A DNA stretch of 63,309 nt, the filler included, from Phoronis australis (lineage: Eukaryota; Animalia; Phoronida), in assembly GCA_002633005.1 (NCBI GenBank). It is 6 parts of 6 records of this genome, joined end to end, with 100 filler letters (N's around TTAATTAATTAA, not from the genome) between each part and the next. Parts side by side here need not be neighbours in the genome. Positions count along the whole stretch, not along the records: positions 13,147 to 40,261 come from NMRA01000695.1; 5 more parts are not named here. The stretch is one strand, 5' to 3'. Each line of letters begins with the position of its first letter. The first letter of the stretch is position 1. Below the pieces are notes generated by a model. It searched no databases, was not told the DNA's origin, and saw only the letters and a list, made by a program, of their open reading frames with translations. Both the position numbers and the translations under genes were made by a program. Below, in pieces: positions 13,212 to 62,659 of this stretch.

Positions 13212-13596
13212 AGCACATTCAGTTACAAGGAAAAAATGGCGGCGTTCAGGACAAGTTCCTGAACTGATGAGCCGGAAATGTGGGTACGGAAATAATCGAT
13301 GACAACCGGTAATCATACGCTCAGAGAGAAGGGTCAAATGCTGTTAAAAAATCGCTTTTGGCAGGAAAGGCGAAAAGAATATAAAGAAAGGGTGTCGAAA
13401 ATAAGAATTTATGTAGTAAGTATTTTCGGATACTAGAACCACATGGGCAGTTTGCAACAAGGACTTTAAGATACTTAACTAAACTTCATTCTGTGACTTG
13501 ATTTTTGAAAACAGCACGAGCAAGCGAAATGTGAAGTTGCACGTGCAATATGGCGAACATGTGAAGGAAGATTTTTTATCTCTCTGAAAAAAAGAT
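13212..13596. promoter_or_regulatory. Putative bidirectional promoter between TMEM101-like and the GH18-like gene
   Basis: Divergent ATGs at 13211 (-) and 13597 (+). YY1-like AAAATGGCGGC near 13233 and ETS-like CCGGAAAT near 13272. Confidence 0.5.
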
Positions 13597-13609
13597 ATGT
13601 TCTGGCACA
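13597..13609 (+). CDS. GH18-like exon 1 (MFWH)
   Basis: ATGTTCTGGCACA|GTAAGT; consensus donor, phase 1. Confidence 0.5.
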
Positions 13610-16600
13610 GTAAGTAATTTTTCGTGTCATGTTGCGCTTTCAATTTGAGATGTGCTTTTTACCAATTGAGTAAAACTTATTCTCAAAAATTGTAACTTTC
13701 AACATGAGAGCATATTAAAATGTTTATCATTTTGAAGATGGATTTCGCCTAAAGTATGTCTAGCCAGCTGCATGGCTGACAAAGCATGACTAAACGTAAA
13801 AACACAACTAGTAAAGGATGTGGGTAATATACTGTAAGCAATTTAAGCGAAGCTCCGAGTTTTCAGTTCGCCACAACTCTGTTAGTTGCGGCCCTCTCGC
13901 CACGAAACGTATAGCAAAATACAACACGTCCAACAGTTCGTAAGTTTCTGAAAATACGAAATTCATTAAATTACAATAGTTTCCTTCGCGAGATACTCAC
14001 AACAGGGCCCAGTTGCATAAAAGTTATACGCCGTATAGCAACAATGACGTAGCATTATCACGTGTCACGTTGACTTGAACAATGCACCTGACGTCATGCA
14101 ACAATCAAACTTTAAAAGCTTTATGCAACTCAGCCCGGGTGTCTATGTGTTCATGGTGTCTCAAATGTTTGCGATTAGTTTTGAACATCATACAGTTCTC
14201 ATCAAGACTGATTTTTATATACTTCCATCATTCGACAATACTTTAGCTTTGCGAGTCTTCGTGGCATGTTGTTTACAACCAATTGAAAGAAGTTTCAATC
14301 GATATGTTTTCCCTAGGCTTCTTAGACACAACCTGGTGAGTCCTAATTCGATAGATTGGAGGAATTAGCCGGCCGGCTTGGAGGCAATGCCCATTTGCGT
14401 TACGCTTTAAGTGACCTCGACAAAGCTTTAATTTGCCCGTTTTTATTTGTTTTCAAATTTTGCTGTTTTGTATTTACATGTACATGTAGGTCTTGTACCT
14501 GCTCCTTATTTGTAAAACAAAATAGGGTCACCGCATTACTTTTACCGGTGTTGTAGCCGCCTTAACAGAGAGGCCTCTGACAAAAAAGTTGAGTTTGCAT
14601 GATTACTGAAAAGTCATTCTAATTAAACCATGAATAAATCATTGAAATCCGTTTGAAAACGAGATAAAGTCGTTGCACGATGTCAGTTTTAGCGACTTCA
14701 ATTGTTTCTGCGCAAAAGCAAACCAATTCAAACCACATGTCATTCATTCCAAGATATAAAGGTTCTGGTGAAATTTGAAAGTTTTATATTTGAGGCATGT
14801 CTAGTGAAATTACAAGGCTTTGAAAAGGAAAGTCTCATTTACCTGACTTGAAATGAATCTATTTTCACAGAAGCCATGACGCTTTTGTTATCTGTCGCTT
14901 CTCCGGTCCACGGCAACCTGATGTTCGGTAGGTAGACTAAACCTGATTAAGTTCAATCGTAATTTTTAAAGGGTAATTGGAAACGATGCCATGGTCGTGC
15001 CATTTAGTTACAGATACGATACCTAAACCCCAGCCAACACCAAATCAGCGTTTCAAATTCCATACCAGCTGCTCCGGTGCCAGAACTCTGGCACCCGCGG
15101 GTCAAATTCCTCACCCTGACCTCAGGAACCACTGGTTCCTAGCCCTGACCCATGCTTAATAGCGGTGAGGAGTTCGCTGCCCGGGTCAGATGTGTGGCCT
15201 CAGAATATGCATGTGAACTATTTTCGGCAAGTGTGCGGAGTTTTTGGCCATGCTATGCAAGTGAGCTGTAATCTTGATGCCAACGCTTTCAGAAATTACA
15301 TGGGAATGAAATTTGTTTCACATGAATGCCACCCCAAACTTTCACTGGTTGTTGCTCACCATTCATGTGAATAGATCAATTTACTAGTGATTAAAATAGT
15401 CAAAAATAAATTTTCATAATATCATTTATTGTACATCGTAGGCTTTGTCCACTCGTAAATAAATACATAAATTCAAATGTATATTCAGAGTATTTACACG
15501 GACAGCAGTTCTTCTCCTAAAGCCACAGCCTTCCGATGCAAGGCGCTGGATACTGTCATGGTTTTTCTGGTGGAATAACCTAACAAGAGAATAGTTAACA
15601 TTCATAATCTCTGGTAGAAGATTTCTTCTAATGTCTCCAAGAACAGGGCATGGACTCATGAAATGAGGCTCATCTTCAATTTCACCCAGACAGCATATGC
15701 CGCATATTTTCTCACTTCTAGGAATACCCATATGTCTCCCTTTCTCTATATCAAGTGAGTGACCTGAACATCGATATTGCGCAAGTATTCTACTCGAATA
15801 AGAGCTTAAAATTCACAAATATTGCTCGCTAACAACATTACGTTTAATAAGACTATAAAATTCATACTTATTTGAGCTACCTAATTCTAGTTGCTATTCC
15901 TGTACGCCACAATCCAGTAATCTCTGCTTGAATACCATAATAAGTTCAGCACCATTGCCTGGCCAAATAACCAAACTTCTCCATAACCGTACCTATACAA
16001 AATTTCTTTGACACGGAGTTACAATTACCGTTTTCACCTTGTTCCCTAAGCATACTATAGCACTTCAGTGGGTACCTATGTTCTTCCATATCAAGTAATT
16101 TTGACCAATACATATATTTTGTAATTAACAATTGTCTCCCACATTCACCACGAGCCATACCATTTGGCACTTTGATACTCAATCTCAGAACATATTTACA
16201 GAAATCATTACCAACTTTTTCAATAGATTCACACATTGATGGTCCCCATATTTCTGCACCATATGTTAATATGGGCATTATCACTGATAGAGTCAAAGAG
16301 TTTAAAATGCACTCCATGGGAAATACAGTTAAATTTTGACAGAGTGGCTTTAATAACACTCATTGCTTTTCGAGCTTGGCTTGCAAGTTCTCTATAACAC
16401 TCTGCTCATTTAAGTCTGCAGGAAAATGTGACTCCGAGGTACGTATAGAACGATTTGGTATCTACTTTCTTGTCGCAAAAAACACGTTTCAGTATTTGAA
16501 AGTATGTCCCCTCGCTTAAATACCACAACATTCGTTTTCTCCAAATTAACTTGCAAGTTGCAATCCCGACAAAACTTTTCGAGGACATTGAGCTTCATCT

Positions 16601-19600
16601 GTAGCCCAGCAACAGTATTCGACATCAGCACTAAATCATCAGCAAAAAACAGAGGACCTATGTCACAACTCGGAGAGACACGTATACCTCTGCCAACATT
16701 TTCTCTAATATCAGACACTAGTGTGCTAACAAACACCGAAAACAGCCATGGACTTAAAATACATCCTTGCCGGACACCAACTGTACAGTTAAAATAGGGC
16801 GTGGTCTGTGACTGTACCATAACACACGATTGCATAAAGTCGTACATACTGCGCAAAATGTTTAAAAAATTTCCATGCAGATCTTTGGTTAAAAGGGAAT
16901 ATAATAAACGGGAAATATCTACACTATCAAATGCCTTACTATAATCAACGAATGCTCAATATACTTTCCCCTTCCGTTTAGTGACATGTTTCTGGATAAT
17001 ACTGCGTAGGTTAAAAATGTTATCGATTGTAGAGTACCCAGTCTTAAAGCCTGCTTGTTCTTCCGGGACACATCCCGTGTTATTCGACCATTCAACTATA
17101 CGAGAATAACGAATTTGGTTTAAAAATTTTATTAATTCTACCTATAACGGAGATCCCTGTATAATTATTTGGACTAAATCTGTCTCCCTTTTTGTAATAC
17201 GGTACAATAATACTTTTTGACCATTGGAATGGGTAATGCCCGGTATTGAAAGTTCTATTAAAAAGTTTGTGGAGAAGTTCTACTATAGGGCCTCAGGAAA
17301 GCACTTATAGAATTCAACCGGTATGCCGTCTTCTCCGGGAGATTTATTATTCTTTTCTTTCTTATTGGCCCTTACTATTTCATCTGCGCTAATACCGGCA
17401 TTTAGTTCATCCATGTCAAAGGCACTGGTTACGTCACGCTCACTCTGTGGGTGACTACTACAAAGCTCACACTGTGCGTCATGCTCTTCAAGAGTCTGTC
17501 TAACTAGGTCATCAAAAGTTTCACTGCGACCCTGGGGGTTATAGCCCCTCCTGCCCCCTATGGTGCGCCGCCCGTGCAGTTTTTCCCAAGGTCTTCCCAG
17601 TGTCACTCAATAAGCATATGCTGTGCTCTCCGACAGGACATCACGATATGAGATCGATCTCTCCAAAAGCGTAGCCGAATTGACTCGGAACTATTTAGGA
17701 GATCGCATCTGGAATTTAGAGAGGAGCTGCCATGGAATCGTTTCCAACATCTGTATATGGTGTCCTTTTCTCCATCGACGTCATCGTAATACTTGTATCA
17801 ACATCACCACTACAACCATCATGACAACCACAACCATAACCACATCGTTTCCGATCGTGATCATCGTCCCATCACCATTGTCAACTGTAGCCACCGACAA
17901 CTTCCTCGTCAGTTTCGTCATCTTCATCCTTATTGCCGTCTGTTTCATCTTGGTCAACCAATGCCTCTATCGACCCGCATTACCATAACTCTTATCTCCA
18001 TCGCGAGATTCATCACCATAACCACTGGCATGATCATGATTATCGATACCGTCATTTTTTGCCATCAATTTATCATTTCATCTTCTTGATCTCTTCTGGA
18101 CACAAAACAATTATACCTGTACTTTACAGCAATGTGTGTTTTGCATACTGTGTAGTGCAATAACTTATTGGTCTATCTATCTGATGGTGGCACGTGTTAT
18201 TTATCGTTTTCTAAGTTTTACAAAGTGTGAAAACATTCTTTCAATTAATGAATAAAGGAAAGTTATATATATATTTCTAATTAAACCGTTGTTTTCTTGA
18301 AATTACTAGGCAACTGGCGACTGAAACTAGGAGTCGGAAAATATCCATTTCAGTCACAACACTATGCCATTCTCGTGGTCACGTGACCGTGTTTTTACCC
18401 AAAATGTCGTTTCTTGAAATGTGTATTATTTTTTGAAACTTGGTTTTTCATAGGTGTGAAATAGGATTGCACTTAACATTTACGGCGAATCCATAAATCA
18501 AGTATAACGGAATCAAGTTCATCTGGCTCCATGACTTATTGTATTTCAGAGGTAAATCGTGTGTGCTATGTGCAGATTGCTGCTAGTGTTCTAGCGCAGC
18601 CAGACACATTCGGAGCGGAACAGATAAAGCACGTGGACCCGTATTTATGTACTCACCTCGTCTTCCACAAGTCTCGATTTGGGGAGCATTTGCAAGACGC
18701 GACCTATTTCTGTAAGTGAAACTACGTGACGAACTACCGCGCCCACTGGCGAAACTAGTAGTTTTTAGTTTGAGTGGGGGTCAAACATAATTTGCCCAAC
18801 TTATTAAATATGCTCTTATGGTTTGGTTTTATGAATGAATATTAATTTTTGAAGACCTTTTGGTCAGTTTCGCATATTTTACTTACTTGAAATTTTACCT
18901 CGAACCCTTTTAGTTGCTTTCTGTGAAAATGAAATAAAAGAAGTGCCCTATACCGGAAGTGGTGACGCTCCCCGCGAATGCGCTCAGGACAAAAGCATTT
19001 TCCCTCGCGTTTCACATTTTTCGACACCAGATCAGTCAGAAGTGTCCGCAATATCAAAATAATAGCACTCGGACAAACATTTCCATATAGACCTGTCATT
19101 TCGACTGCACAGCGATAACTAATTCGCAACGTCGTTGCATCGCAATTTTGCAAACCTGCTGGAAATTTATCTTTCTAGTTACAAGAGTATAAAGCTGCTG
19201 AGCTCATTGCAACATCATTGACTCGAACTTTATGCCTTACTTTATTTTCTTTTTGATCTAAAAACATCAGTTACGGTTTCATAGATTATGTCATGGTATC
19301 AGCAAAATGTTTCAAAATCCATGTATGTAGTAATTTTATACGTGTAACTCACTGGCCATTGTCGAGCAGAGGCAAGGACCTGAGTCGTGACAAGGAATAC
19401 ATGTAGCTTTCATTGAAATCTAGATCTGTTTAGCTGTCGTTTTGATCTGTTGTATGCAAAGCTTCCCTGTATGCAAACGGATTCAACAAACTAGAGGCTA
19501 GCATTTTCACAGATATTCAATTCTAGTGTGACCAATGAAAAAGTTCGTTATTTATTTTGTCATGGTGACAGTGATCAAGACATTCATGTTTTTCTGTTGT

Positions 19601-22600
19601 TCTGAAGTGACTGAGAAATATAATTTTTCATGGCCACGCGCATGAACATTACACCAAAATAAAGTCTAATTTCACCTTCTCTTTCGTTAGTAAAGTTTCT
19701 CTTATTTGACTTGCGCCGGTACAAAAGTAAATTATGGCTCACTCAATTCATTTACCTCTAATGCGAAATTAAACAGTAGCGTTCACCACAAAATATATTG
19801 CAACACTGTCATTCACTGGTTTGAACTTGATGGATTAGAATTTGAATTAATTTTTACTCTTTCATTGACATTTGTTTCACAAACGTTAGTGAATAACTGT
19901 AGAATCCTGAAGCAAATTACATATAGTGACAAGGCTCCGACTGTAATGGCCGTGAAACGTTCTTGCTGAGTACTTAGCCAGGCTTTCTTTTACTTTCATA
20001 CAAACCAGAAAACACCATTTCCCATGCCAAATGGATTTCGCAAGCTACTGTTTAACTTCCAAGATCCACGCGACGGGCGTAAGCGCGTCGCATAAGGTTA
20101 TCGCTTGTGGAACGCTATCATTGTTTTCCTTTGTTGCGTCTTTGTTGGATATAACAATACCGGTCGCACGGACATCGTACCTTGGGCGCTCATCAGCCGG
20201 TTACCAATAATTGCTTATTTTTAATCTCAGTCCCGGTTTTGTGCTATCACCAACTGCATTATAAACTCTGACTGCAGATGATATTAGGCCATCTGTTCGC
20301 CTTCTAAAGAACGAAAACCCTGAGCTCAGGTTCCTTTGGTCCATGGACATTTCGTCTGACCACAACTTCAGCCAAACACACGAACTGGACACGACTCACT
20401 TGAATGGGCTTCTTGACATTCTGCAAAGGAATGATTTGTCTGGTCTCGTGTTTGTCGCAAATCGGTCGAATGAAGAACGTTTAACCAATCTAATAATGGT
20501 AAGGCCACGGTAAGGGTGCCTTACTGTATTTAGACAATGTGATTCACCGGCGAGACTATAAGCAGTTCCAAATTTCAGTTATAGCATTTTCAGTTGTCAC
20601 GTTGAAAAGCGCCTGGTTAACATAAGTGACATTTTCTTCTTGAGAAACAGTTATTGTTTTGGATCTCATTAAGACGCCAGTACATGTCGTCAGAAAAAGA
20701 TGCGGGATGTGCGTTACGTAGACACGAGACTGACTTCTTGGCGAAAATGCAAGATTACGCGAGACATCACGAGATATCGCCATATAATATAAGCAAAACA
20801 TGCAATCACATTAGCTTCCTTCGCGGAGTTCACGTGTCTACGTATATGACTGAGCCTGTCGAAGCCATATTGTTGTGCCTACTTATCCCTTATGGACTCA
20901 ATTCACACACCTAGACAGGAAGCGCGTTCCAAAACGAGGCTAACTACATAGCTCGGTTGATGGCTTATCGGCATAGTTGTGTTCTGCGTTGCCATACGCC
21001 GCGACGAAGGAAAATATTTCCGTGTAAAATTTATGAATGCTTTCGAAAAGTTTGATCATATTTTGTCGCATCTCGGTTGCCGAGCATCATAGCAATGACC
21101 GGTGAACCTTCGGCCAGTCAGATTGTGTTTTCATGACTACCGGTTGAAACATGGTGCATTTGTTTTCAAAAAGGACAGAACCCTCAATCCCTCGATTGTG
21201 GGACCGCATATCGGTCTTATTCTTCTCTAAAAAATATTGAAAAATCGCGCGAAATTCCCCTCACGATTCCTAAAAATTCCCCTAAAATGATTGAAACTTG
21301 TAACCACACAGGTGACAATTTGAAAGAGCACAAAATACAAAAGGCTACTTGAGACTGCCTATGAGAGCTTGCAACAGTTAGGGCGGGTGTGCTATTGCAT
21401 ATGCACTAAAAAAAGTTGGGGGGCTACAGCCGCCCCAGCCCCCTATGGTGTGCCGCCTACGTACTGATGGTGATCTGGAAGTAAATTTCCTCCTCACTCG
21501 ACGAAAAATCCCCCTCTCAGAAGGCACGGGCACCTTTCCCCTCGGATGAACGCGGCCTTGAAGGAACATGATAACTACTCTTGTTCTGCCCAGTTAACAG
21601 AAATTAAGCTCTGAAACGAGATGAGTTAATTTTTCAGTTTATGCTTTAAGCGAACAGACTAGGTGTTTTATTTTGAAATTCAACTTGGTCCAGATTGATA
21701 TTAGAAACCTAACAGATGAACATGTAAAATTTATTAAAACCAAGACAGCAGAATTGATGGTTAAATAGTTTTTAGCTTCAGTCAGCAGCCTGTTTTTTTA
21801 TTTTAATAAAAATAATTTTAATAAAATCAATCCTTCTTAAAGGTTAATGACAAATTAAGAGTTAGTCCAGGTATTCCCTAACTTGTTCACTACCAGCACC
21901 TGCTGTGCTTGATGTCAATATTCTTGATTAACAAATTAAACCAGATGTGACTTGCACATGAAAGCAAAATGCGATGAGCCACCACTGTCAAATATACCCC
22001 CGCATTCAGCATACATAATCCGTAACACGGTTGCCGCAATTTGGTCATTTATTTTTCATGTTTCGAAACTAGTTTCCGAAAAAAACTTGTACCCTTTCGT
22101 CGGACAACTCTTTGGTTCATTGACTTGTTCTCTAATGTATCGGTGTTTTTTTTTTCGTCTTTGTATTTAATTGTCTACAAAATATTTAGGGTTTAATATG
22201 GAGGTTGGACTAGAAAGACCAGCCATTTAACTCATGCAATGTCAACTTCCGCTTTGTTTATCGCACTGAGCCTCGCTTTGGGTTTTAATGTTCCCCGCGT
22301 TAATTAGGATTTTGGAGCGAAAGGGATCAAACAACACACGTGAGCGTATGCTTTACAACATCGCAGCATGTCGATCACGTTTTCCCGCCGAATCGTTTTC
22401 TCGCAAGTGGACTAACTGCATGGGTTATTCTTTGGTTCAACCTTGTGTGGGTGTTTTTTTTTTCTGTAGCCAGATTCTAATCTATCTGGTTTTCATCTAG
22501 GAAACAAAGGCTATATTTGACGACTATGCAAAGCTGATGGGTACAAGGTTCACCTTGGCAGCTCAAGTAATGCCCTCTATGAACCTTTACAAAATACAAT

Positions 22601-25600
22601 TAGTTATACGGTAAGTCCAATTANATATAAGCAAAACATGCAATCACATTAGCTTCCTTCGCGGAGTTCACGTGTCTACGTATATGACTGAGCCTGTCGA
22701 AGCCATATTGTTGTGCCTAGTTATCCCTTATGGACTCAATTCACACAGCTAGACAGGAAGCGCGTTCCAAAACGAGGCTAACTACATAGCTCGGTTGATG
22801 GCTTATCGGCATAGTTGTGTTCTGCGTTGCTCGATCTTAAAAGTCGTTGCCATACGCTGCGACGAAGGAAAATATTTCCGTGTAAAATTTATGAATGCTT
22901 TCGAAAAGTTTGATCATATTTTGTCGCATCTCGGTTGCCGAGCATCATAGCAATGACCCCGGTGAACCTTCGGCCAGTCAGATTGTGTTTTCATGACTAC
23001 CGGTTGAAACATGGTGAATTTGTTTTCAAAAAGGACAGAGCCCTCAATCCCTCGATTGTGGGACCGCATATCGGTCTTATTCCTCTCTAAAAATATTGAA
23101 AAATCGCGCGAAATTCCCCTCACGATTCCTAAAAATTCCCCTAAAGTGATTGAAACTTGTAACCACACAGGTGACGATTTGAAAGAGCACAAAATACAAA
23201 ATGCTACTTGAGACTGCCTATGAGAGCTTGCAACAGTTAGGGCAGGTGTGCTATTGCATATGCAACGCAGCACTAAAAAAAAGTTGGGGGGGCTACAGCC
23301 GCCCCAGCCCCCTATGGTGTGCCGCCTACGTACTGATGGTGATCTGGAAGTAAATTTCCTCCTCACTCGACGAAAAATCCCCCTCTCAGAAGACACGGGC
23401 ACCTTTCCCCTCGGATGAACGCGGCCTTGAAGGAACATGATAACTACTCTTGTTCTGCCCAGTTAACTGAAATTAAGCTCTGAAACGAGATGAGTTAAAT
23501 TTTCAGTTTATGCTTTAAGTGAACAGACTAGGTGTTTTATGTTGAAATTCAACTTGGTCCAGATTGATATTAGAAACCTAACAGATGAACATGTAAAATT
23601 TATTAAAACCAAGACAGCAGAATTGATGGTTAAATAGTTTTTAGCTTCAGTCACCAGCCTGTTTTTTATTTTAATAAAAATAATTTTAATAAAATCAATC
23701 CTTCTTAAAGGTTAATGACAAATTAAGAGTTAGTCCAGGTAGTCCCTAACTTGTTCACTACCAGGACCTGCTGTGCTTGATGTCAATATTCTTGATTAAC
23801 AAATTAAACCAGATGTGACTTGCACATGAAAGCAAAATGCGATGAGCCACCACTGTCAAATATACCCCCGCATTCAGCATACCTAATCCGTAACACGGTT
23901 GCCGCAATTTGGTCATTTATTTTTCATGTTTCGAAACTAGTTTCCGAAAAAAACTTGTACCCTTTCGTCGGACAACTCTTTGGTTCATTGACTTGTTCTC
24001 TAATGTATAGGTGTTTTTTTTTTCGTCTTTGTATTTAATTGTCTACAAAATATTTAGGGTTTAATATGGAGGTTGGACTAGAAAGACCAGCCATTTAACT
24101 CATGCAATGTCAACTTCCGCTTTGTTTATCGCACTGAGCCTCGCTTTGGGTTTTAATGTTCCCCGCGTTAATTAGGATTTTGGAGCGAAAGGGATCAAAC
24201 AACACACGTGAGCGTATGCTTTACAACATCGCAGCATGTCGATCACGTTTTCCCGCCGAATCGTTTTCTCGCAAGTGGACTAACTGCATGGGTTATTCTT
24301 TGGTTCAACCTTGTGTGGGTGTTTTTTTTTTCTGTAGCCAGATTCTAATCTATCTGGTTTTCATCTAGGAAACAAAGGCTATATTTGACGACTATGCAAA
24401 GCTGATGGGTACAAGGTTCACCTTGGCAGCTCAAGTAATGCCCTCTATGAACCTTTACAAAATACAATTAGTTATACGGTAAGTCCAATTACTCCTTTGG
24501 GAACGAGATTAAAGAACTTTCGCCAAACGTTGATTTTTGTGTGTGATATGTTAGTTTTTTGCCTTACGTTCTCATGCAATAAATCTGACAGTTTGTTATT
24601 ATCGATTCTATATTAATTATGACTTTGTATAATGTAGGCCCACAAGACCATTTCCTATTAGGCCCAGTTCGGTAGAGTCACAAACATTTTCATTTTAGAC
24701 ACATTGAATTTGTGGTATTGGAAACGGTGAAAGTTCGCCAGTTTGAATCTGAATCCATCACTCCTGTTTCTGGCAGCGACAAAGATTACAGTATTGTGAG
24801 TATAGCAACGAATGCTTTTTCAGTCTATGGTCACTGCACGATTTCCTTCTAGTACGTGTAGGTCTATATGTGTGGCTGAGAAGCTGCAAACTTGACTGTA
24901 CCAAACAGTACACGACACGCATGCGCGCTCCTTTGATGATTTTTACTTCCGGCGGGCTAATTAAGCAAGTAACCCCACCTATGGACTGAGAATCAGCAGA
25001 TAATTACGGTCACCCAGCATAGTGAGAACACAGCGAATCAAATAACTTAGACAATGCACGATTGATTACCAATCATCTCAGCTGATAACGGAGAAACTAG
25101 AGAAAAATTATACCTGGAAGTTTGCGCTACGTTTCATTGCCTTGATAAGATGGTCTGGATGGTTTCTATGAAAACGCAACCCTCTGAAACTTGGCTAATC
25201 TCTGCAGTGTGTTTAATACTCGGAATCGGTTAATTGAAGCACACAGCGGTGACAGCTTGGACAGAAGTTGTACCCCCTTACAAACTCGTTGTGACTGTCC
25301 CATTGTATGGAACCAAGTACCACATAGGAGACCGAGACGTCTTTGGTGGACTCGTGTCTATGCGCCAGGTAAGGTACACTATGCAAATGCCACTATTTGA
25401 AAATATGTGTGTCACGTTTAAAAAAGTAAAGATTTTTTAGCAATTTTGTGAGTTGTGCCAGGTGACTAACATCAATTCAAAAATTTGCCTTAGGTTTGCA
25501 TTTTAATGTGAAAAAATGGCGTGACTTAATACAACCCATGGAGATATTATTTGTAGTCTTATTGGTATCTAATTTCATTGTTTTTAAATATGTTCTATTT

Positions 25601-28600
25601 TATGTCCAAGTGCCGAGATTAGCTAAACTTAAGTCAAATTTCATGACAATGTTCAAGTTTGAAATAGGCGAGTTTTCACTTTTTATAAAATACAATGGTT
25701 TGTGATATCAAAAAATGTCGATGGAAGTAAAATTTCTCCCGCCTCAAAGTGGTCACTGAAGTAGTTTTTAAGTCTCCTGTGGCTTACGGCCTATTAGCAT
25801 GGCGACCACTTTCCTCGAAGTACAAGTACTTGGCACTTTCCAAAAATATGTGAAGAACGCAAGTGTTAAATGTTCAAAGTCTCTTGATATGAATGTCATG
25901 TTTTACAGTTTGTGCACGTTCATGTCGACATAATCTATCAGACTGTGAAAAGGGGTTACTGCATAGGCAACATTTGCATATGCTGACATACACCGTACAC
26001 ATGTACGCTACACGGCAATGTGCAAGCGGGATTCATTTTCGATATGAGTCAATGCAACGCTTTTCATTCACCAGGAATACACGAGCAAAATGTGAACAAC
26101 TAGAGAATTATTTGTCCTCAAGATAAAATATTCATTCAACCTTTGCCAGTTTGCGTTTTTTTTCAAATCTGCGAGAGCTGCAACATTTTTGCGGCTGCAC
26201 GTATTGGTATGCTGTTGAATTTTGCAGCTATGCAACATCAGTGACACCTGGGACCACTCGTGGGACAGTGATCGCTCAGTGGAAGCGTTATCGTGGAACG
26301 AGACAATTATATTTTTCGAGGGCCGCTTGAGTATTAGCGCCAAGGTAGGATATCCTCGCCATCGCTATGATTTGTTGTTAAGGCCAGCTCGCTCGCAATC
26401 ACTGGCGACCAAAAAGTGTTTGATGTTTAGCGCTTTGCGGTATTTGGGCAGGTTTGCATGTAAAACACGAAAAGGGTGCTCATTGGAAAGTGCTCTGACG
26501 GACGACACTTGACAATTGCCGACTGAAAAGGGAAGTATGAAGACGAAGGTAGCGGCACCTTAGACAGCAACAACTGTGACACTTGCAGACGATATAATAT
26601 TTAGCAATTTAAAATTGAGACAGAACTGTCATATAACAAACAGTCCTGTTCCAGGTGTTACGATTAGGACCTGATTGCATGTTGAGTGTTATTTACATTG
26701 GTGCAACTGTATAATTACTTTAAACTATTTTCGGAAATTTTGATGATCGAACCGGCCAACGATGTCGAGTCGACATTGACCTACCTTGAGCTTTCAATGT
26801 CAGATGTCACTGTTGAAGTAGTGCGGAAGGTGAATACGGAAAACAGTATGTATTACACGGCCGTATTGCACTCGACTGATTCAACGTCTATGGGATACTT
26901 TACCCTATTGCTTGAGGGAATGATAGAAAGGTCAAAAGCCCACGTTCTTCTTGAACCCTAACACGGCCACTACACTGAAGCCTTCGAAACGCACCAGCGT
27001 CATACCTTAGTCATTATAATAGCTCGAGAACAAAAATCGAAGGGAGAAATGAATTGTGCATTTAAGTTGCCCATTACTCTAGACCTATTCACAAAGCAGG
27101 TTTCAGGAAGACCCGACAAAGGACGCAGGAGCAATGCTATTCATTACAGACAGAGCTTGGCTAGATCTGGCAACATGCCAAATTTCAACAAAAAATACTT
27201 CAAAGGACAGTGGAGCCAATCAAACATTCCAAAAATGGCCATCGCAGCGCTATCTTGAGTCTCTTTTCGATTAAAAACAACCGGCCAGGAGAAGCATGTT
27301 GAGTGGACAGACGGTGAAGTGCGAAAGAGCAAGTAAACAAACAAGCAAATGTTTTTCACGACTGAGCAACAAAACCGGCAAATTTCATTTCACATGTAAT
27401 AAATATCACTTGACGTAAAAACAGCATCAAATACCTTATTTTTGCACGAAAAAACTTGCATTTTTCTCAGGTGACACCTGCTCCCCATAACCTACAATAT
27501 AGCCAACTGTACACAAAAACAAATTCTCCTGATATTATGCTGCAGGCTCGCTATGTCGTAGACAACAACTTGGGTGGAATTGCGTTTTGGTTTCTCGATA
27601 TGGGAGACTTCAAAGCCTGCTCTACAGCAAGGCCCTATGCCAACCTCATCCGTGTAAAAGACGTTGTCGTGCCTGGTGAGTTATCGCCACGAGAATTTAT
27701 TAAAAACATCCATCGCTCAGCGCTAATTAGGTCAAGTCTAATTATATAATTAGAATAAATACTACTAGTGATGAATGTTTGTTTTCGGAACAACCAATGG
27801 TTTTAGCATGAGTAAATAAGAACACTTACTCGTGATATCATAAAAAGAAACAAACCTGTACATCCCAAAACATGTTTTTCCATAAAAGGCTTTTTAATTG
27901 AAAACTGGCTCGCTAGTGGCAGCTTACAAAGCAAGGCGACATTTTTCTGTCCGATTGCATTTGTCAAATCAAGTTCACACCTAGCCAAATTAAGTCAAGA
28001 TTATAGGTGCCAGTTTTCCTGCTTTGCACGCGCGCCATCGGATTATGGAGATTGAACAACACGTAGTTCGCAGTTAAAGAAAACCTTGTTGCTAGATAAA
28101 ATTTAATTTTGCCTTACATAAGGAAATGCCTCGTTTTTCGATCCTCCGTGAATTCGACGACATTTGTAAGTAATCTATCGTTTTCAACTTTTCTCAGATA
28201 GTTGCATCCTCACGTTTGAGCACAAAACGCGCCTGGCAGTTTTCAAAAGGATTATGGGTGGACGTAGGCCGTTACACAGTTCTTCCGACAGCCGTACGTT
28301 ATACAACTTAAGAGAACATGACGTCATCGAAATCTCTTGCGTGGAGGGCTATATTCCGTCATGCGCGGTCTACGGAGATTGCAAATTCACGTGCGACAGG
28401 GAAAATATTGATGTCACTCGTGTTTATTGTAAAGGTGTGCAAATGTGAAGTTACCAAAATAACTACCCTGTACATGTTATGAAGGGGGTTAACAGACGAA
28501 TAATAGAAACAATTTTATAACCTGAATAGCCAGTTGACTCACTCTATTGATTTGCTGGTTTTCCGGGATGCAGGTAGCGCCACCTTTCTATCCCACTGCG

Positions 28601-31600
28601 GGTACAATTGAAAATATGAGCAGTGTATTGGGCGAAAAACTTCAAAAACTTCTACAAACTTCAATGAAACTTGTTCTAGAGTGAATTCTTTGAGAGAATT
28701 TAGACTACAAAGTATTCCAGATTATAGGAATCTGGTAAAAGGTGGGTGTCTACCAGCCAAATTTCTTACAAATCTAATGTCTAAAGGCATCCTGAATTTC
28801 ATGCTTGTCAGAATAAATATTGATTAAGTAATTNCGCCGGGGAACCCTAGACCACCTTCTCAGTCTAAGCTTGTGCTGTGACTGTCATTTTGAGGAGTCC
28901 CGGAATTTGATAACCAGTTTGTTGCCCATTTTCATCATTGCACAAATCTGGATCTCACTATGCGAGACCCCTGTGAGCGACTGCTACCCCTTTATCTATA
29001 TCTAACTCGTAATAACGACAATAATTTCAGAAATCAAATGCAGAGTGCTGACTGGTCCCCACGTGAGCACCGTTGACGATGTCTTATCCAGATCAGTTAC
29101 GTACGGCGGAACGGTACTCTATCGGTGCGACAGAGGATGGGCGAGAAACCGCGTTGTTGATTTCGCATTGCCGTGTGACGAATCTTTTTTAGAAATTGAT
29201 TCAGACAACTTTGGATGCTTGGAAGGTAAAGCCTCGCTGTGAATATGATAGTTAATAATTTAGAATTAAAGTTTTGAATAACTGCATCTTCAGTTTTAAA
29301 GATTCCTGTGAGAAATTTTATTATGAAAAGTTCCGTTACCTTCCGTTCTGAAGTCGACCAGCTAAGTCAATGAGTTGCGGTGCTCTATTTTTGTGGGAAT
29401 TACAATTCCCCGTACGTTTTTCAAATTCACCCCAGCAATCAGTTATCATCCTTACCAAAGGTTAAACCAAAGAACAAAAAGCAAATTGTGGACAAAGAAA
29501 TTTTCAAAGTCCTTCAATTAGTTAATTTATAAAATGTTCATTTTCTGGAACCACTGTTTTAATTCAGTTGTGTGACATTGTTTCTATTTTTTTCAAGAAA
29601 CATGCAGCCTTTCTCTAAATAGAAGTCATGGTCTGACAGCTTTTGCTCTTAGAAATGACAAGTGGCAACTCGTTGATTTTGACAAAAAGATGGAGTTGTT
29701 CGACGGCGAAAAGTTATTAGTACGGTGTGAGCCGTCCTATTCACTCGCCCAACCTTGTCCCACTACCAACAGCACAAGAGAATGTGCGGACACGTGCAGT
29801 GGAGGGTCATTGACGCTGGACTATAATAAAACTGTCTGCGAAGGTTTGTTTAATTCATTCCGTGTATTACACGTGCACTTTTTCTCACATTAATAATACA
29901 CGTGAAACCGCTTCGATACACAACACGAAACGAGCTCTGTCCGTTTCAGGCAGTTATAGAAGGCATAGTTGTTAGACGGTTAAGTCTCCCAATAATTGCC
30001 TACACTTTTGCCACGCCATGAATATGTTCTTGCTTTACCTTCACAATAGGCAACACTTTAACAATGATAGACTCCAATGCATACAGTATACGCACCTCGT
30101 GCAAACGTCAACAGTACTGTCTAGAATGCAGTTTATATCCAGCAAACTACATCCTGTCCGTTAATTTAAAAAAAAAATTGTATAACTGTATTTTAGTCTG
30201 GTGGTGTCAGCCGCGATTATAGGAAACCACATGCTGCAATTGGGGAGACGGAGCGACAGCAGGGGGTGCTGTGCAATAATTTTAATAACTCACCAGTCTG
30301 AAAATACTGTACTTACTTATAAACAGGTCACGTGTCTACCTTCTGGTGGGACTGTAATTCATCCATTTTTTCTGTTATACACTTTGTTCGTAAAACAGAA
30401 ATCCCTAACGGACTACATGTCTACATTTTATTGTGACTGTAGAGTGTGGTCAAAGATTCCTTCAAACGCATTGTGTGAAGTTTCAGCTACATGCGTCTTA
30501 GTGATGAAAAAGCAGCGACGTTTACATTTCCTGGAGTTCCCCTGAATCGCTGTTGTTGGACATGTCAAATGTACCGTTTCAACCCTCTAGGATTGCTCTG
30601 TGTCCTAACGGGCGGTGAGAATGCCTTTCCTTCAACCCGAGCTGTAGGCGACCACATTCGAGTGAAGGAAACTGTCGAGTATGCTTGCAGTCATCGATGG
30701 TCCCGCAAGGGTGAAAGGTTCTTCACAGTCACGTGTGTTTACTTGGACAATAATCGCACAAGTTTATATCCGAACGACATAGAATGCCGAGACGGTACTA
30801 CCATTTTCAGTGATATTTTGTTTTAATTTGAGCCGACGTTTAAATTCAACAATTACATCCTAAAATACCGCAGCGCACTCCTTGATTCTGTAGTATAATC
30901 ACACAAGTCTGTGCGTATGTAGGGTACATGCACCACGTTATTTGTCTACTTCACAAATTGCAACTTTACGATTTCTGGGTCAGTTTTGAAGCTTAAAAAA
31001 ACGAACAGTGGCTATTTGTTGTACAATAAATACGAATTCACCCAATGGTAACACAAAAACGGGTAGAACGAGCGTTTCAGTGAAGCCAGGCAAGGTTAAT
31101 TTGTTACACGAGACAACCAAAGCAAGAGAGGAAGTCCACGCTCAGCATGCTGTTGTATTGCAAGTTCGCAGCAGAAAATGTGTACAGTTGAGGTGTTCAC
31201 AAGCTCAACTAAACCAGGGTAGCTGCGTTCATCGGGTGGGTCTCCAAAGTTCGCGATATTCACCTATCATAGAATCCGTTTCAGTTCTGGCCAAATCTTT
31301 GCAAAATCTCAACAGGCGTTACACTATACATGTCGAAATCGCGACAATTACAGCGTAGGTCCATCCATAAGTAAATAACAACAAGGCGCCATAACGTCCA
31401 TTAACTTTTTTAACAGAACGCTATACCATTGCGACAAAAGATCAACTCAAGTGCCAAATAACTCTAACATTAACAGGCCTGTTATCCAAGTTTGGCAGAG
31501 TTCTGCAGAAGTATGCCTAATTTATTTTTAAAAACTACTGTGCTTTGTCGTCTTGTACTAGAAAATCATTCATTCTAGATTTTTTTGTAGAATCATCCCT

Positions 31601-33820
31601 CTCCGAATGCGAGGTCTCCATTCGCAAACAACCGGGATTGCAAGTGTTCCAAGGCTTCATGGGGCAGTGGACTGAACTGTCATTAAGTTCTACCGTAAAG
31701 TATTCTATTGTCGTGCACCGGGTGCAACAGTTTGATGACATCATGTTTAAATGCCAACCTGGTTATAAAAATATCATTCCGTGCATGTCGACCAAAGATC
31801 ACCAGCCATTCTGCACGTTGGGATGCATTGGAACCGAGATTAACTTGGACATCGACATTTGTAGAGGTAAAGTAACACCCATCATGTTATGGGATGAGGT
31901 TATCATCGCATCTGCAAATACAACCTCACAAAGTTATCATGTTGTTTTTCGACGTTTAGAATCTTGGAAGGAGTGATATAGTGAAAAGTGCATTGTCCAT
32001 CGTTATAATCAGCGGCAACATTAATTATTTTATTTCAAATGGTTGTTTAGCATATTTTATGCAAGTCCAGATAGAGCGCGCAGGTATCCTTATCGATTTC
32101 TCTGACACCTCATTTCGAAACTGGTGTGTTTTAATGATTCCTAAACCAGTTCGTGTACACATTCTTCCTGAAAGTTTCGACTTTAATTTAAGCTTAGTGT
32201 ATCTCTGTCAGATCAGCCTCCCGTTCAGTAACGCTAGGACCTCGCTAAAAAGCAAGACTTCGCGATATTACGTGAGATATTGCCGTGCTTTTAAAATAAG
32301 AACACGTGACTTTGCCTAGGTTTGAGCTAGGTCCTAGCGTAGGTCCTAGCGTCTACTGAACGCACGCCTGGTATGCTCTTTCGCAGCGACCACGTGTGGG
32401 GTGGTACCTCTTATCCACCCAAGGTATGATGCATAGAGCAATTCATTGAATGTGCTTGTATGAAAATTGGCAATACAGTTCCAATGTCTACTGATTAAGT
32501 TCGACATTTTAGTCAGCCACTGTCTGGTAAAAGTTCAGAGTGGTGCACGTTACAAATGGGTGGCGAGAAGCTCCGCCAACGAGACTGTTCCATTAGACGC
32601 GGAAGTCACGTGGACTTGTAACGTGGGATATGTGTGGCCTGACCACGTGGTGCAGAAAACAACTACCTGTAGTTCAGATGGCTTACTCCATCCGCAGCCC
32701 TGCCAACCGTTACCAGGTAATTTTTCAGCCTTTTGGTTGACCCTGTTGCACCAAAGTTAGGCAAAGTCAAGGATGATATGCATCCGGAGTGTAAATGTTC
32801 ACTGCTAATATATTTACATGTAGTAATATTATGTCATCATTTTTAACTGTCAAACCACAATAGCGTGACATTGAAAACTATACCATGAATTTTGATATAG
32901 TACTTCTACGAACAAACGAAACCTGATTGGTGCAGGAAAGCATCCCTAAGTGTCACTAAAGTTATCAGTTTTGATCCTAAGAAGAACTGTTGAAATGCAG
33001 TAGTTTGAAAGTATACTGGAAAACGTCGAAATTTGGCAAACTTTTGGCGCGCAAAATCGCGACTAAATACATATTCCTTTTCGAAAAGTTTTTCAATTCT
33101 GGCTAAATAGCAACGGATTTGATCCATGCACGTTGTGGAAATAGCGACAAAATAATGCTCCAATCTGTCCATTTGTAAACAACTATTAGCTACGCTCAAT
33201 ACACACGTTTACTTAACCTCCGACGAAAGTTCAACAAAAACGTTACTTTATCGTGAAAAAAAAGTTGGCTAAACCGCCAGATAAATCAGGAAAAAAGTTT
33301 CTCCAGGTTTGGTAGAGTCTTGCTGAGCTCTTTCGAAGTCTCTCTTGTTCATTTTAAAAACTATAATAGTATTTCACTCGTTATTGACGGCTTCACTGGA
33401 AGTCTTTATAGTTGCTCAACTACCCAAAAAGTGCGTCCAAGCTGGTTTTTGAACTGCATGGCCTATTATGACATTGTGGTCAGCAGTAGGTTTTCAAAGG
33501 AGCCCCACCTACCTCAGGTTATTAGTAAGGGAAGCAGGAGTACTCTGTAGGGGTCAGGTATGTTTAGAGTAGACCACGAGTAGACCATACAATTAACAGT
33601 TTCAGATGGACGCAAAACCACTAAGGTCACAGAGACAGTGACATCACCTTACCGAAGTAATTTAAATCATTCATCAGTCAACGTGGAAAAGGCTAAAGCG
33701 AAAGGCATCTCGTCCGCAACACCAGTTGCTAGCACTGCCACGGCTGTACTTCTTACCATCGTGACAAACATTGCTCTGTTGAGCCATTGGATGATCGTGC
33801 TACCATGTTATCCTGTATAA
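13597..33820 (+). CDS. Catalytically inactive GH18 chitinase-like protein with six Sushi/CCP-like modules and a GPI-like tail; 16 exons, about 870 aa
   Basis: Exons 13597-13609, 14871-14927, 18550-18711, 20278-20498, 22501-22610 (or duplicate 24369-24478), 24699-24795, 25240-25368, 26228-26344, 27546-27675, 28198-28434, 29031-29225, 29598-29843, 30591-30794, 31591-31866, 32513-32716, 33606-33820. All introns are GT-AG, phases are consistent, and the total is 2613 nt with no internal stop. GH18 landmarks appear in order: RVCY, DPYLCTHL, LKNENPELR, PPYKLVVTVPLYG, SISAK, NLGGIAFWFLD. Confidence 0.85.
14005..14136. mobile_element. Small MITE, possibly PIF/Harbinger-type
   Basis: Inverted ends GGGCCCAGTTGCATAAA / TTTATGCAACTCAGCCC. 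Confidence 0.55.
14871..14927 (+). CDS. GH18-like exon 2 (signal peptide)
   Basis: TTTTCACAG|AAGCC...TTCG|GTAGGT; encodes KAMTLLLSVASPVHGNLMF, phase 1-1. Confidence 0.62.
15426..17480 (-). mobile_element. Decayed, 5'-truncated non-LTR retrotransposon (CR1-group LINE, ORF2/RT) in intron 2 of the GH18-like gene
   Basis: Frameshifted fragments in order: NKSPGEDGIPVEFYK, GVRQGCILSPWLF, LFFADDL, LTYGAEIWG and C-terminal CGICC..EDEPHF..CP. Confidence 0.92.
17760..18090. repeat. Degenerate (CAT/CAC)n low-complexity tract
   Basis: Imperfect trinucleotide repeats that generate His/Ile/Thr-rich ORFs in all frames. Confidence 0.75.
18550..18711 (+). CDS. GH18-like exon 3
   Basis: TATTTCAG|AG...T|GTAAGT; EVNRVCYVQI...KHVDPYLCTHLVF matches the GH18 N-terminal VCY and DPxLCTH motifs. 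Confidence 0.88.
20278..20498 (+). CDS. GH18-like exon 4 (degenerate catalytic region)
   Basis: CTGCAG|AT...ATG|GTAAG; YDIRPSVRLLKNENPELRFLWSMD...LLDILQRNDLSGLVFVANRSNEERLTNLIM. Confidence 0.85.
22501..22610 (+). CDS. GH18-like exon 5, copy A
   Basis: TTTCATCTAG|GAA...CG|GTAAGT; ETKAIFDDYAKLMGTRFTLAAQV. Confidence 0.7.
24369..24478 (+). CDS. GH18-like exon 5, copy B
   Basis: Identical to 22501-22610. Confidence 0.75.
24699..24795 (+). CDS. GH18-like exon 6
   Basis: CATTTTAG|A...ATT|GTGAGT; HIEFVVLETVKV...DYSI, at the position of GH18 YLDFINLMTYD. Confidence 0.8.
25240..25368 (+). CDS. GH18-like exon 7
   Basis: HTAVTAWTEVVPPYKLVVTVPLYGTKY...RQ|GTAAG. The AAG acceptor is weak, so the start is less certain. 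Confidence 0.8.
26228..26344 (+). CDS. GH18-like exon 8
   Basis: TTTTGCAG|CTA...AAG|GTAGG; LCNISDTWDHSWD...FFEGRLSISAK. Confidence 0.85.
27546..27675 (+). CDS. GH18-like exon 9 (end of barrel)
   Basis: ARYVVDNNLGGIAFWFLDMGDFKAC...; CTGCAG acceptor, GTGAGT donor. Confidence 0.92.
28198..28434 (+). CDS. Exon 10: 6-Cys Sushi-like module 1
   Basis: Phase 1-1; DSCILTF...ISCVEGYIPSCAVYGDCKFTC...VYCK. Confidence 0.85.
29031..29225 (+). CDS. Exon 11: 4-Cys Sushi-like module 2
   Basis: Phase 1-1; IKC...YGGTVLYRCDRGW...LPC...GCLE. Confidence 0.87.
29598..29843 (+). CDS. Exon 12: 6-Cys Sushi-like module 3
   Basis: Phase 1-1; ETCSL...DGEKLLVRCEPSY..QPC...ECADTCSGG...VCE. Confidence 0.85.
30591..30794 (+). 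CDS. Exon 13: 4-Cys Sushi-like module 4
   Basis: Phase 1-1; LLC...ETVEYACSHRW...TVTC...IECRD. Confidence 0.85.
31591..31866 (+). CDS. Exon 14: 6-Cys Sushi-like module 5
   Basis: Phase 1-1; SECEV...IMFKCQPGY..IPC...FCTLGC...ICR. Confidence 0.85.
32222..32362. mobile_element. About 140-bp MITE family with 21-bp TIR
   Basis: TIR CGTTCAGTAACGCTAGGACCT / AGGTCCTAGCGTCTACTGAACG. Other copies at 36859-36987 and 63166-63305; partial or degenerate copies near 6040-6110, 7260-7320, 20730-20780 and 50750-50865. Confidence 0.85.
32513..32716 (+). CDS. Exon 15: 4-Cys Sushi-like module 6
   Basis: Phase 1-1; SHC...DAEVTWTCNVGYVW...TTTCSSDG..PQPCQP. Confidence 0.88.
33606..33820 (+). CDS. Exon 16: Ser/Thr-rich linker and hydrophobic C-terminus
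   Basis: TTTTCAG|AT; DGRKTTKVTETVTS...GISSATPVASTATAVLLTIVTNIALLSHWMIVLPCYPV followed by a stop. Confidence 0.75.
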
Positions 33821-36858: not shown

Positions 36859-36987
36859 CGTTCAGTAACGCTAGAACCTAGCAAAAATCTAGCCAAATAA
36901 CACTTGTTCTCATTTGAAATACACGGCAGTATCTCACGTAACTCTCGCGAAGTCTTGCTTTTTAGTGAGGTCCTAGCGTTATTGAAG
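36859..36987. mobile_element. Copy of the 140-bp MITE family
   Basis: CGTTCAGTAACGCTAG...GAGGTCCTAGCGTTATTGAAG. Confidence 0.8.
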
Positions 36988-47579: not shown

Positions 47580-47679
47580 NNNNNNNNNNNNNNNNNNNNN
47601 NNNNNNNNNNNNNNNNNNNNNNNTTAATTAATTAANNNNNNNNNNNNNNNNNNNNNNNNNNNNNNNNNNNNNNNNNNNN
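47580..47679. other. Assembly gap linker
   Basis: 44 N + TTAATTAATTAA + 44 N. Confidence 0.97.
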
Positions 47680-62450: not shown

Positions 62451-62659
62451 AATATGAAGTTGTGTACTATTTGGCTACTTATTAAATGTTTGACTGTGAT
62501 TCTGCTGAACTGGTCTTTTGGAAATATTCCTTAGTGATTTGAGATTCACTTAGAGTCTATGCTGAACGAAACCTGTACGAGAATTTTTGAATGTAATTAT
62601 AGTGCTGGTCAATTTAAATACTGCAAGAAGTCATTGTGTATGTTCTCTGTTTATGTCAG

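What the first reader, a model, noticed from the sequence alone, without database searches (positions are those of the whole stretch)
13597..33820. Hidden 16-exon gene: dead GH18 chitinase domain on a six-module Sushi-like stalk with a GPI-like tail
Seen: 16 phase-compatible GT-AG exons splice to an open frame of about 870 aa that the ORF track does not show. The order is signal peptide, GH18 barrel, six Cys modules, Ser/Thr linker, uncharged hydrophobic end, with 10 N-x-S/T sequons. Known: animal GH18 proteins usually carry CBM14 chitin-binding domains or no extra domain, and inactive members are mostly small secreted proteins. Inference: this is a cell-surface pseudo-chitinase held out on a CCP-like stalk. 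It could act as a glycan receptor, adhesion molecule or organiser of a chitinous matrix. I do not recognise this architecture.
Basis: partly seen in the sequence, partly recalled or inferred. Interest (0 to 1): 0.85.

Follow-up and report, generated by a model that had tools for sequence, protein, structure and literature searches.

The report
Dead chitinase on a Sushi stalk
An expressed 16-exon animal gene encodes a chitinase fold stripped of its catalytic residues, followed by six cysteine modules (three of them complement-type) and a likely membrane anchor, so it likely works as a cell-surface binding protein rather than an enzyme, in a layout I did not find described.

Summary
The gene is real. 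Sixteen GT-AG exons give one open frame of 872 aa. Stranded RNA reads show 14 of 15 junctions in two samples and no expression in a third. The exon 10-11 junction was not seen, and that intron holds an assembly break.

The head is a full GH18 barrel (HH probability 99%) with six introns shared with animal chitinases. It has no acidic residue in the catalytic strand, so it cannot be a canonical chitinase. It has also lost most chitin-contact residues that chi-lectins keep, so chitin binding is doubtful.

The stalk is not six like modules. It is three copies of a pair: a 6-Cys module (Sushi kinship unproven) plus a divergent 4-Cys Sushi module.

The tail is GPI-like in the assembly, but the RNA animals mostly carry a variant with a short basic extension, so GPI versus short-tailed transmembrane is open.

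No orthologue was found among 1.84 billion proteins, and no paper describing GH18 plus Sushi was found.

Verdict: a new, probably lineage-restricted architecture of the chitinase-like family, most likely a non-signalling surface docking or adhesion protein. The ligand is unknown. Interest 0.5.

The parts
13597..13609 (+). Exon 1 coding part (ATG, start of signal peptide); transcribed from about 13550
   Evidence: joint 13609-14871, 10+14 reads, up to 57-62 letters on the exon 1 side
14871..14927 (+). Exon 2: hydrophobic core and predicted cleavage region of the signal peptide; skipped in frame in a minor form
   Evidence: (skip 13609-18550 in 3 reads of X2)
18550..18711 (+). Exon 3: GH18 strands 1-2, Cys29 and Cys57
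   Evidence: (2 of 2 PDB hits are an insect GH18)
20278..20498 (+). Exon 4: GH18 strands 3-4; catalytic motif replaced, no acidic residue in 131-142; sequon at Asn139
24369..24478 (+). Exon 5 (GH18); identical second copy at 22501-22610
24699..24795 (+). Exon 6: GH18 strand 6, MxYD motif lost
25240..25368 (+). Exon 7: GH18 strand 7 (Tyr243 kept, Arg lost) and shortened insertion domain
26228..26344 (+). Exon 8: insertion domain, Cys265
27546..27675 (+). Exon 9: GH18 strand 8 (Trp317), Cys327; ends in phase 1
   Evidence: PF00704 E=0.11; 21 of 21 PDB hits are chitinases or chitinase-like proteins
28198..28434 (+). Exon 10: module A1 (6 Cys, phase 1-1)
29031..29225 (+). Exon 11: module B1 (4 Cys, divergent CCP, phase 1-1); junction from exon 10 not seen
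29598..29843 (+). Exon 12: module A2 (6 Cys)
30591..30794 (+). Exon 13: module B2 (4 Cys, divergent CCP)
31591..31866 (+). Exon 14: module A3 (6 Cys)
32513..32716 (+). Exon 15: module B3 (4 Cys, divergent CCP)
33600..33820 (+). Exon 16 coding part: short Ser/Thr linker, small-residue run, hydrophobic tail, stop (read through by six codons in most RNA reads)
33821..35500 (+). 3' UTR, covered by same-strand reads to at least 35500; poly(A)-type hexamers at 33992, 34275, 34617, 34970, 36578
20787..24491 (.). 1.87-kb direct duplication (97%) split by a single N at 22624; likely an assembly artefact that doubles exon 5
28834..28834 (.). Single-N contig join in intron 10; no overlap found on either side; may hide sequence

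Best explanation
This is an expressed gene whose chitinase barrel has lost its catalytic acids and most chitin-contact residues, and it likely encodes one membrane-tethered, non-signalling surface protein that holds the barrel out on a three-times-repeated pair of cysteine modules to bind a protein or non-chitin glycan partner. Shown: splicing, strand, expression in 2 of 3 raw-read samples, GH18 homology, motif loss, CCP kinship of the 4-Cys modules. Inferred origin: a duplicated animal chitinase gene kept its introns, took up phase 1-1 module exons at the phase-1 intron behind the barrel (where chitinases carry linker and CBM14; recalled), and the A-B exon pair was then triplicated. Inferred working: the signal peptide sends it through the ER, it is N-glycosylated and anchored by the C-terminal tail (GPI about 55%, short-tailed transmembrane about 35%, released about 10%). 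With no real cytoplasmic domain it would act as an adhesion, docking or barrier protein, or as a co-receptor, like CD55/CD46-type CCP stalks. The stalk would reach about 20-25 nm if each module is CCP-sized (recalled dimensions).
For: Junction reads for 14 of 15 introns, all on the strand expected for a + transcript. GH18: a profile of 10 animal chitinase domains scores the spliced protein at 50.7 bits over residues 26-330, against 1.2 for the best of 501 shuffled or reversed controls; hhalign probability 99.2, E=1.8e-19, 318 columns. All six introns inside the barrel recur at the same place (within 2 codons) and phase in unnamed animal-type chitinase genes: 16 of 22 hand-picked exon pairs, 4 unresolved, 2 elsewhere. 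The four barrel cysteines are kept (two conserved disulfides per PMC11190707 passages). No acid in residues 131-142, whereas the DxxDxDxE Glu is the proton donor (PMC4373397 passages). W31 and F58 equivalents are Ala34 and Lys64; GGW, MxYD and the beta-7 Arg are lost; only Tyr30, Tyr243 and Trp317 are kept; 25 of 64 invariant columns are kept. W31, F58 and W352 are the YKL-40 contacts named. B modules: 0 of 1000 shuffles reach the score of each against a Sushi profile; the B profile hits CR1, Crry, CR2 and CD55 at E 1e-6 to 1e-4, summed over repeats; the first 26 VIA rows for the B3 model are CCP-bearing proteins. A modules are paralogous (Z 5.4 and 11.4 for two of three pairs). Tail: best 19-residue hydropathy 2.05; no D/E/K/R in the last 30 residues of the assembly allele.
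Against: The e10-e11 junction was not seen and exon 10 has the lowest coding depth (about 12 and 6, against 20-30 for exon 11), so the count of modules and the direct head-to-anchor link are not closed. No ligand evidence of any kind. Loss of canonical residues does not rule out chitin binding by other residues; no model of the barrel was made. The signal peptide core is short (about 9 residues) and no predictor was run. No Pfam Sushi hit for any module at E up to 5, and the GH18 hit is far below cut-off (exon by exon). All six modules lack the canonical CCP Trp. The B3 model has pLDDT 61 and best Z 5.0. With no orthologue there is no conservation evidence. Of 8 near-fixed coding differences shown between reads and assembly, 5 change the amino acid, and the stop is read through (partial tables), which shows no clear purifying selection.
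Confidence: 0.55

Rival explanations
1. It is a surface chi-lectin. The dead barrel still binds chitin or GlcNAc-rich glycans and tethers cells to a chitinous matrix or senses chitin-bearing microbes.
For: Tyr30, Tyr243 and Trp317 on the cleft floor are kept. YKL-40 binds chitin without catalysis (passages). C. elegans chil genes protect by modifying the cuticle (PMC10523662 passages).
Against: The W31, F58, GGW, MxYD and Arg equivalents are lost and strand 4 is wholly hydrophobic. In the ungapped register the catalytic Glu position is an Asn in a sequon. The three kept aromatics may be structural.
Confidence: 0.22
2. It is a fast-evolving recognition protein for self/non-self, gamete or immune (complement-regulator-like) function, in which the CCP stalk rather than the barrel does the binding and alleles differ in sequence, anchor and perhaps module number.
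For: No orthologue among 1.84 billion representatives. The stalk's best matches are complement regulators. CD55 is GPI-anchored. 5 of 8 shown coding differences are non-synonymous and the tail differs between alleles. On in two samples, off in one. OVGP1 is a precedent for a dead GH18 in fertilisation (passages).
Against: All CCPs match complement regulators because these dominate the PDB. The variant counts are tiny and come from truncated tables. The tissues of the samples are not known.
Confidence: 0.15
3. The locus is a recently decaying or weakly constrained paralogue, or two transcription units that the model joins across the assembly break in intron 10.
For: Junction e10-e11 not seen; N at 28834. 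About 20-23% identity to chitinases. No excess of synonymous differences.
Against: 872 open codons over 16 exons with all module cysteines in register. Both halves are on in X1 and X2 and off in X3, on the same strand. Exon 10 depth ends at its donor, with no read-through into the intron. Exons 11-16 have no signal peptide of their own in the model.
Confidence: 0.08

Closest known systems
Animal chitinase/chitinase-like group of GH18 (CHIT1, CHIA; inactive YKL-40, YKL-39, Ym1, OVGP1)
   Same: Full barrel with insertion domain, four conserved cysteines, six shared intron positions and phases, signal peptide; catalytic motif lost as in CLPs.
   Different: Only 20-23% identical. Lacks most cleft residues that YKL-40 keeps. 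Carries a six-module stalk and a membrane anchor in place of CBM14 or nothing. OVGP1's mucin tail is secreted (recalled).
CD55 (DAF), CD46, CR1/Crry: CCP stalk, Ser/Thr region, membrane anchor
   Same: The 4-Cys modules match these by profile and by weak fold search; one module per phase 1-1 exon; the same order of modules, linker and anchor (linker recalled; GPI of CD55).
   Different: GH18 head; modules lack the conserved Trp; every second module is longer with six Cys; no evidence of complement binding.
Tobacco CHRK1 (GH18 ectodomain receptor kinase)
   Same: GH18 domain displayed at the cell surface (PMC5485988 passages).
   Different: Plant protein with a cytoplasmic kinase; no CCP stalk. 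The review read treats its ectodomain as enzymatic, while I recall it as inactive.
C. elegans CHIL chitinase-like proteins
   Same: Lineage-specific chitinase-like genes acting at an outer barrier (PMC10523662 passages); inactive and membrane-linked (recalled).
   Different: An expanded family induced by oomycetes; no CCP stalk known to me (recalled). This gene has no second copy in the window.
P0001, unnamed 1056-aa protein with 16 Sushi repeats
   Same: The only hit of the A-module profile in 1.84 billion proteins (E=1.2e-4).
   Different: The match covers 16 profile positions per repeat; canonical Sushi; no GH18. Not an orthologue.

Membership tests
GH18, chitinase/CLP group | Full-length GH18 barrel homology | tested here: met
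   50.7 bits against 1.2 for the best of 501 controls; hhalign 99.2, E=1.8e-19, 318 columns; a bacterial profile of 73 sequences gives 29.7 bits against 2.8
GH18, chitinase/CLP group | Four cysteines of the two conserved disulfides | tested here: met
   C29, C57, C265, C327 fall on invariant columns; the bonds themselves are inferred
GH18, chitinase/CLP group | Intron positions of animal chitinases | tested here: met
   6 of 6 internal introns recur in place and phase; 16 of 22 hand-picked exon pairs from 10 loci
GH18, chitinase/CLP group | Pfam PF00704 above gathering score on the whole spliced protein | not tested
   Only single exons were scanned: exon 9 gives 12.6 bits, E=0.11, cut-off 29.6
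Active GH18 chitinase | DxxDxDxE motif with catalytic Glu | tested here: not met
   No acidic residue in 131-142 in either alignment register
Chi-lectin (YKL-40 type) | Retained cleft residues W31, F58, W352 and the beta-6 Tyr-Asp | tested here: not met
   W31 is Ala34, F58 is Lys64, Tyr-Asp is Val198-Lys199; only the W352 equivalent (Trp317) is kept (W31, F58, W352; Tyr-Asp role recalled)
Chi-lectin (YKL-40 type) | Measured binding to chitin or chito-oligomers | not testable with these tools
   Needs protein
CCP/Sushi: B modules (exons 11, 13, 15) | Four Cys in CCP spacing and a profile match | tested here: met
   0 of 1000 shuffles each; hhalign probability 83, E=9e-6; PDB profile hits
CCP/Sushi: B modules (exons 11, 13, 15) | Conserved Trp before the last Cys; Pfam PF00084 hit | tested here: not met
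   No such Trp; no Sushi hit at E up to 5
CCP/Sushi: B modules (exons 11, 13, 15) | CCP fold | tested here: inconclusive
   B3 model pLDDT 61; best Z 5.0, rmsd 3.8, 58 aligned (C1s CCP); first 26 rows CCP-bearing; Foldseek best E=0.16
CCP/Sushi: A modules (exons 10, 12, 14) | Profile or fold match to CCP | tested here: inconclusive
   68, 233 and 7 of 1000 shuffles reach the score; hhalign probability 13; 0 PDB hits; the sole library hit is a Sushi protein; model pLDDT 51
GPI-anchored protein | Small-residue attachment site, polar spacer, hydrophobic C-terminal tail without a charged end | tested here: inconclusive
   Met by inspection in the assembly allele (small residues 838-846, no charge in the last 30). 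In the reads Leu867 is Arg (6 of 6, 9 of 9) and the stop is read through (4 of 7, 8 of 9), adding six residues, three of them Arg/Lys. No predictor was run
GPI-anchored protein | Cleavable N-terminal signal peptide | tested here: inconclusive
   By inspection: basic n-region, 9-residue core with hydropathy 2.18, small residues at -3/-1 before residue 20; SignalP not available
GPI-anchored protein | Release from cells by PI-PLC | not testable with these tools
   Needs expression in cells

The most novel reading that the evidence does not exclude
A chitinase barrel has been turned into a ligand-binding head that no longer reads chitin, possibly with an N-glycan at the old catalytic position (Asn139) plugging its own cleft. 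It is mounted on a complement-regulator-like stalk that includes an undescribed 6-Cys module, and it varies between individuals in sequence, anchor type and perhaps module number, as a self/non-self or gamete recognition receptor would.
Probability: 0.15. Interest if true: 0.8.

Novelty: new variant of a known kind. Interest (0 to 1): 0.5.

Why it matters
Known inactive animal GH18 proteins are mostly small secreted lectins. This one adds a cell-surface form built by exon shuffling with CCP-type modules, and its intron record shows how it was put together. It is a clean test case for what a GH18 barrel does once both catalysis and the usual chitin contacts are gone. It also shows a class of expressed genes that per-exon domain scans miss entirely. 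Its weight is limited: lineage-specific domain shuffles are common in marine invertebrates (own knowledge), there is no orthologue yet, and the ligand is unknown.

Tried and rejected
No whole genome is held for this window, so paralogues elsewhere in the genome and relatives could not be searched.

Word-based homologue searches with exons 14, 9 and 3 against longer proteins found nothing: 0 of 72, 0 of 4 and 0 of 3 candidates. This is weak evidence. The Atlas gave no answer. tblastn of exon 9 against plasmids gave 3 chance-level hits.

The A3 model was too poor (pLDDT 51) for its fold searches to mean anything: best Z 4.9, generic beta sandwiches; Foldseek best E=0.13. The Pfam hits ADGRF3_N (exon 15, E=0.0024) and DUF3623 (exon 16, E=0.0023) are below cut-off and were not used. 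No RNA holder was listed in the index; the contig run X4 shows only repeats here.

A first exon model with a wrong exon 6 donor (24799) shifted the frame of exon 7 and was dropped. A longer exon 9 from 27471 was rejected by reads. Use of both exon 5 copies in one mRNA was rejected: it would shift the frame and no such joint is listed. No further A, B or GH18 copies lie in the window.

Three of 12 full-length reference chitinases (L001, L048, L072) were left out of the profile because the script did not find their domain end. No tree was built: about 20% identity to unnamed references.

Literature: nine full-text searches gave no paper describing GH18 plus Sushi/CCP. Searches returned 0; one search returned 3, of which I read passages of one (PMC6359903: sushi named only in a general domain list). 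In one search, none of the 25 listed of 104 holds 'sushi'. The GH18 architecture review (PMID 21750098) is not held. Figures and supplements of PMC7560691, which draw molluscan GH18 architectures, were not seen and could bear on novelty.
Full report
Scope. No whole genome is held. The host is an animal by gene structure and neighbours: TMEM101 head-to-head upstream, TRAPPC8 and a rhodopsin-type GPCR downstream.

Gene model. Sixteen GT-AG exons between 13597 and 33820 are phase-compatible and give one open frame. With the acceptor that reads use for the last exon (33600) the protein is 872 aa with 10 sequons. Raw reads of three RNA runs and one contig run were laid on 24300-35500, and two of the four runs on 13147-22623. 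In X1 and X2 14 of 15 junctions are joined by 10 to 53 reads in total, all with the first mate on the minus strand, as a stranded library gives for a plus-strand RNA. X3 has no depth on any exon of 24300-35500, so expression depends on tissue, stage or individual. Three reads in X2 skip exon 2 in frame, which removes the signal-peptide core.

Two assembly issues. A 1.87-kb block is present twice at 97% identity around a single N at 22624 and doubles exon 5 exactly; it is likely two haplotypes left unmerged. A second single N lies at 28834 in intron 10, with no overlap on its sides. The exon 10-11 joint is not among the 15 of 16 rows shown, although rows with 4 reads are shown. Exon 10 is the thinnest coding exon (about 12 and 6 deep), and its depth stops at its donor. 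The hidden row may be this joint, or further exons may lie in unassembled DNA; one more B-A pair would keep both frame and pattern. The tool warns that dips in depth can come from its filter.

The head is GH18. Single exons barely register: PF00704 E=0.11 for exon 9, but 21 of 21 PDB hits for exon 9 and 2 of 2 for exon 3 are chitinases or chitinase-like proteins. I fetched references by motif. A profile of 10 animal-type chitinase domains from 9 of 12 full-length loci scores the spliced protein at 50.7 bits over residues 26-330; the best of 501 controls scores 1.2. hhalign gives probability 99.2, E=1.8e-19 over 318 columns. Identity is 20-23%. The four cysteines of the two conserved disulfides are in place (PMC11190707, passages). 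All six introns inside the barrel recur in other chitinase genes at the same position (within 2 codons) and phase: 16 of 22 exon pairs from 10 loci, 4 unresolved, 2 elsewhere. I picked those pairs by hand, mostly near the expected places, so the phases are the real test. The gene is therefore a duplicated animal chitinase, not a transfer or a chance frame.

The head is dead, and more than dead. The catalytic strand has no Asp or Glu between residues 131 and 142; the Glu of DxxDxDxE is the proton donor (PMC4373397, passages). In the ungapped register the Glu position is Asn139, which begins a sequon; both aligners instead put a short gap there, so the glycan-plug idea is only a possibility. Of the cleft residues, the W31 and F58 equivalents are Ala34 and Lys64, the GGW motif, the MxYD motif and the beta-7 Arg are gone, and Tyr30, Tyr243 and Trp317 remain; 25 of 64 invariant columns are kept. 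YKL-40 binds chitin through W31, F58, W69 and W352. This protein is thus more degenerate than a chi-lectin, which lowers the odds of chitin binding without excluding it.

The stalk is (A-B) times three. Exons 10-15 are all phase 1-1. B modules (exons 11, 13, 15; 4 Cys) each beat 1000 of 1000 shuffles against a Sushi profile built from 8 repeats of P0001. Their own profile finds CR1, Crry, CR2 and CD55 at E 1e-6 to 1e-4, summed over repeats. A modest model of B3 (pLDDT 61) ranks CCP-bearing proteins in the first 26 rows, best Z 5.0. They lack the canonical Trp and get no Pfam Sushi hit. A modules (exons 10, 12, 14; 6 Cys, 79-92 aa) are related to each other (Z 5.4 and 11.4 for two of three pairs) but not clearly to Sushi: 68, 233 and 7 of 1000 shuffles score as well, the PDB gives no hit, and the model is unusable. 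Their profile's only hit among 1.84 billion proteins is a 16-Sushi protein at E=1.2e-4. By eye their second half has CCP spacing with one extra Cys pair, and their first half has a long insertion. They are likely elaborated CCPs, but this is unproven.

The anchor. After a 36-residue linker with 10 Ser/Thr come small residues at 838-846 and a hydrophobic end with no charged residue in the last 30 (best 19-residue hydropathy 2.05). That fits a GPI signal by inspection. In the reads, however, Leu867 is Arg (6 of 6 and 9 of 9) and the stop codon is a sense codon in 4 of 7 and 8 of 9 reads, adding six residues, three of them Arg or Lys. That ending looks like a short positive-inside tail behind a marginal transmembrane helix. 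Only 40 of 155 difference rows were shown, so more changes may exist there. Either way there is no signalling domain.

Relatives and literature. No orthologue was found, nor any look-alike in this scan's notes. Nine paper searches gave no description of GH18 plus Sushi/CCP (listings seen, passages read for seven papers). A survey of seven molluscan genomes names only CBMs as GH18 partners in the passages read and reports the catalytic residues as well kept (PMC7560691); its figures were not seen. Among nematode genomes 51 of 76 chitinase-like sequences lack catalytic residues (PMC5297725, passages), so dead GH18s as such are common. Surface GH18s have precedents: tobacco CHRK1 and an unreviewed note on a feather-star GH18 receptor kinase.

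Mechanism and verdict. The most likely reading (0.55) is a membrane-tethered, non-signalling docking or adhesion protein whose barrel, held out on the module stalk, binds a protein or a glycan other than chitin. Rivals are a surface chi-lectin (0.22), a polymorphic recognition or complement-regulator-like protein (0.15), and a decaying or split locus (0.08). Of 8 near-fixed coding differences shown between reads and assembly, 5 are non-synonymous; this is too few, from partial tables, to call selection either way. The finding is a real and apparently undescribed architecture within a known family: a new variant of a known kind, interest 0.5.

Noticed in passing
window 9975-12541, minus strand: TMEM101 exons (PF15111 E=1e-26) lie head-to-head with this gene, across an assembly gap at 13047-13146 and a repeat at about 13147-13469 that is read on both strands.
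   Followed up: no
window 15429-17606, minus strand (intron 2): Broken LINE-type retrotransposon; reverse transcriptase piece at 16413-16955 (PF00078 E=6e-21).
   Followed up: no
window 13550-13564: Four-codon upstream ORF at about the 5' end reached by reads; it may or may not be in the mRNA.
   Followed up: no
window 13609-18550: Minor in-frame skipping of exon 2 (3 reads in X2, against 14 and 17 for the normal joints) would remove the signal-peptide core.
   Followed up: partly
window 33650-35500: Reads differ from the assembly far more often in the end of exon 16 and the 3' UTR than in upstream coding exons, and depth falls there; the RNA animals carry a divergent haplotype.
   Followed up: partly
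window 32212-32372: Short high-copy repeat in intron 14, with copies at 6016-6120, 36868-36998, 50758-50865 and 63160-63309; heavily read on both strands in all runs.
   Followed up: no
window 43639-49556 minus; 57981-58886 minus; 62618-62890 plus: Downstream neighbours: TRAPPC8 exons (PF24544 E=1e-23), a long single-ORF rhodopsin-type GPCR (PF00001 E=9e-37), and an exon that looks like an alanine aminotransferase (recalled; no Pfam hit).
   Followed up: no
L031 520-549 and L074 860-889: Unnamed chitinase-like exons whose first strand also lacks the usual Trp-Ser-Gln-Tyr-Arg loop; possibly other degenerate GH18s.
   Followed up: no
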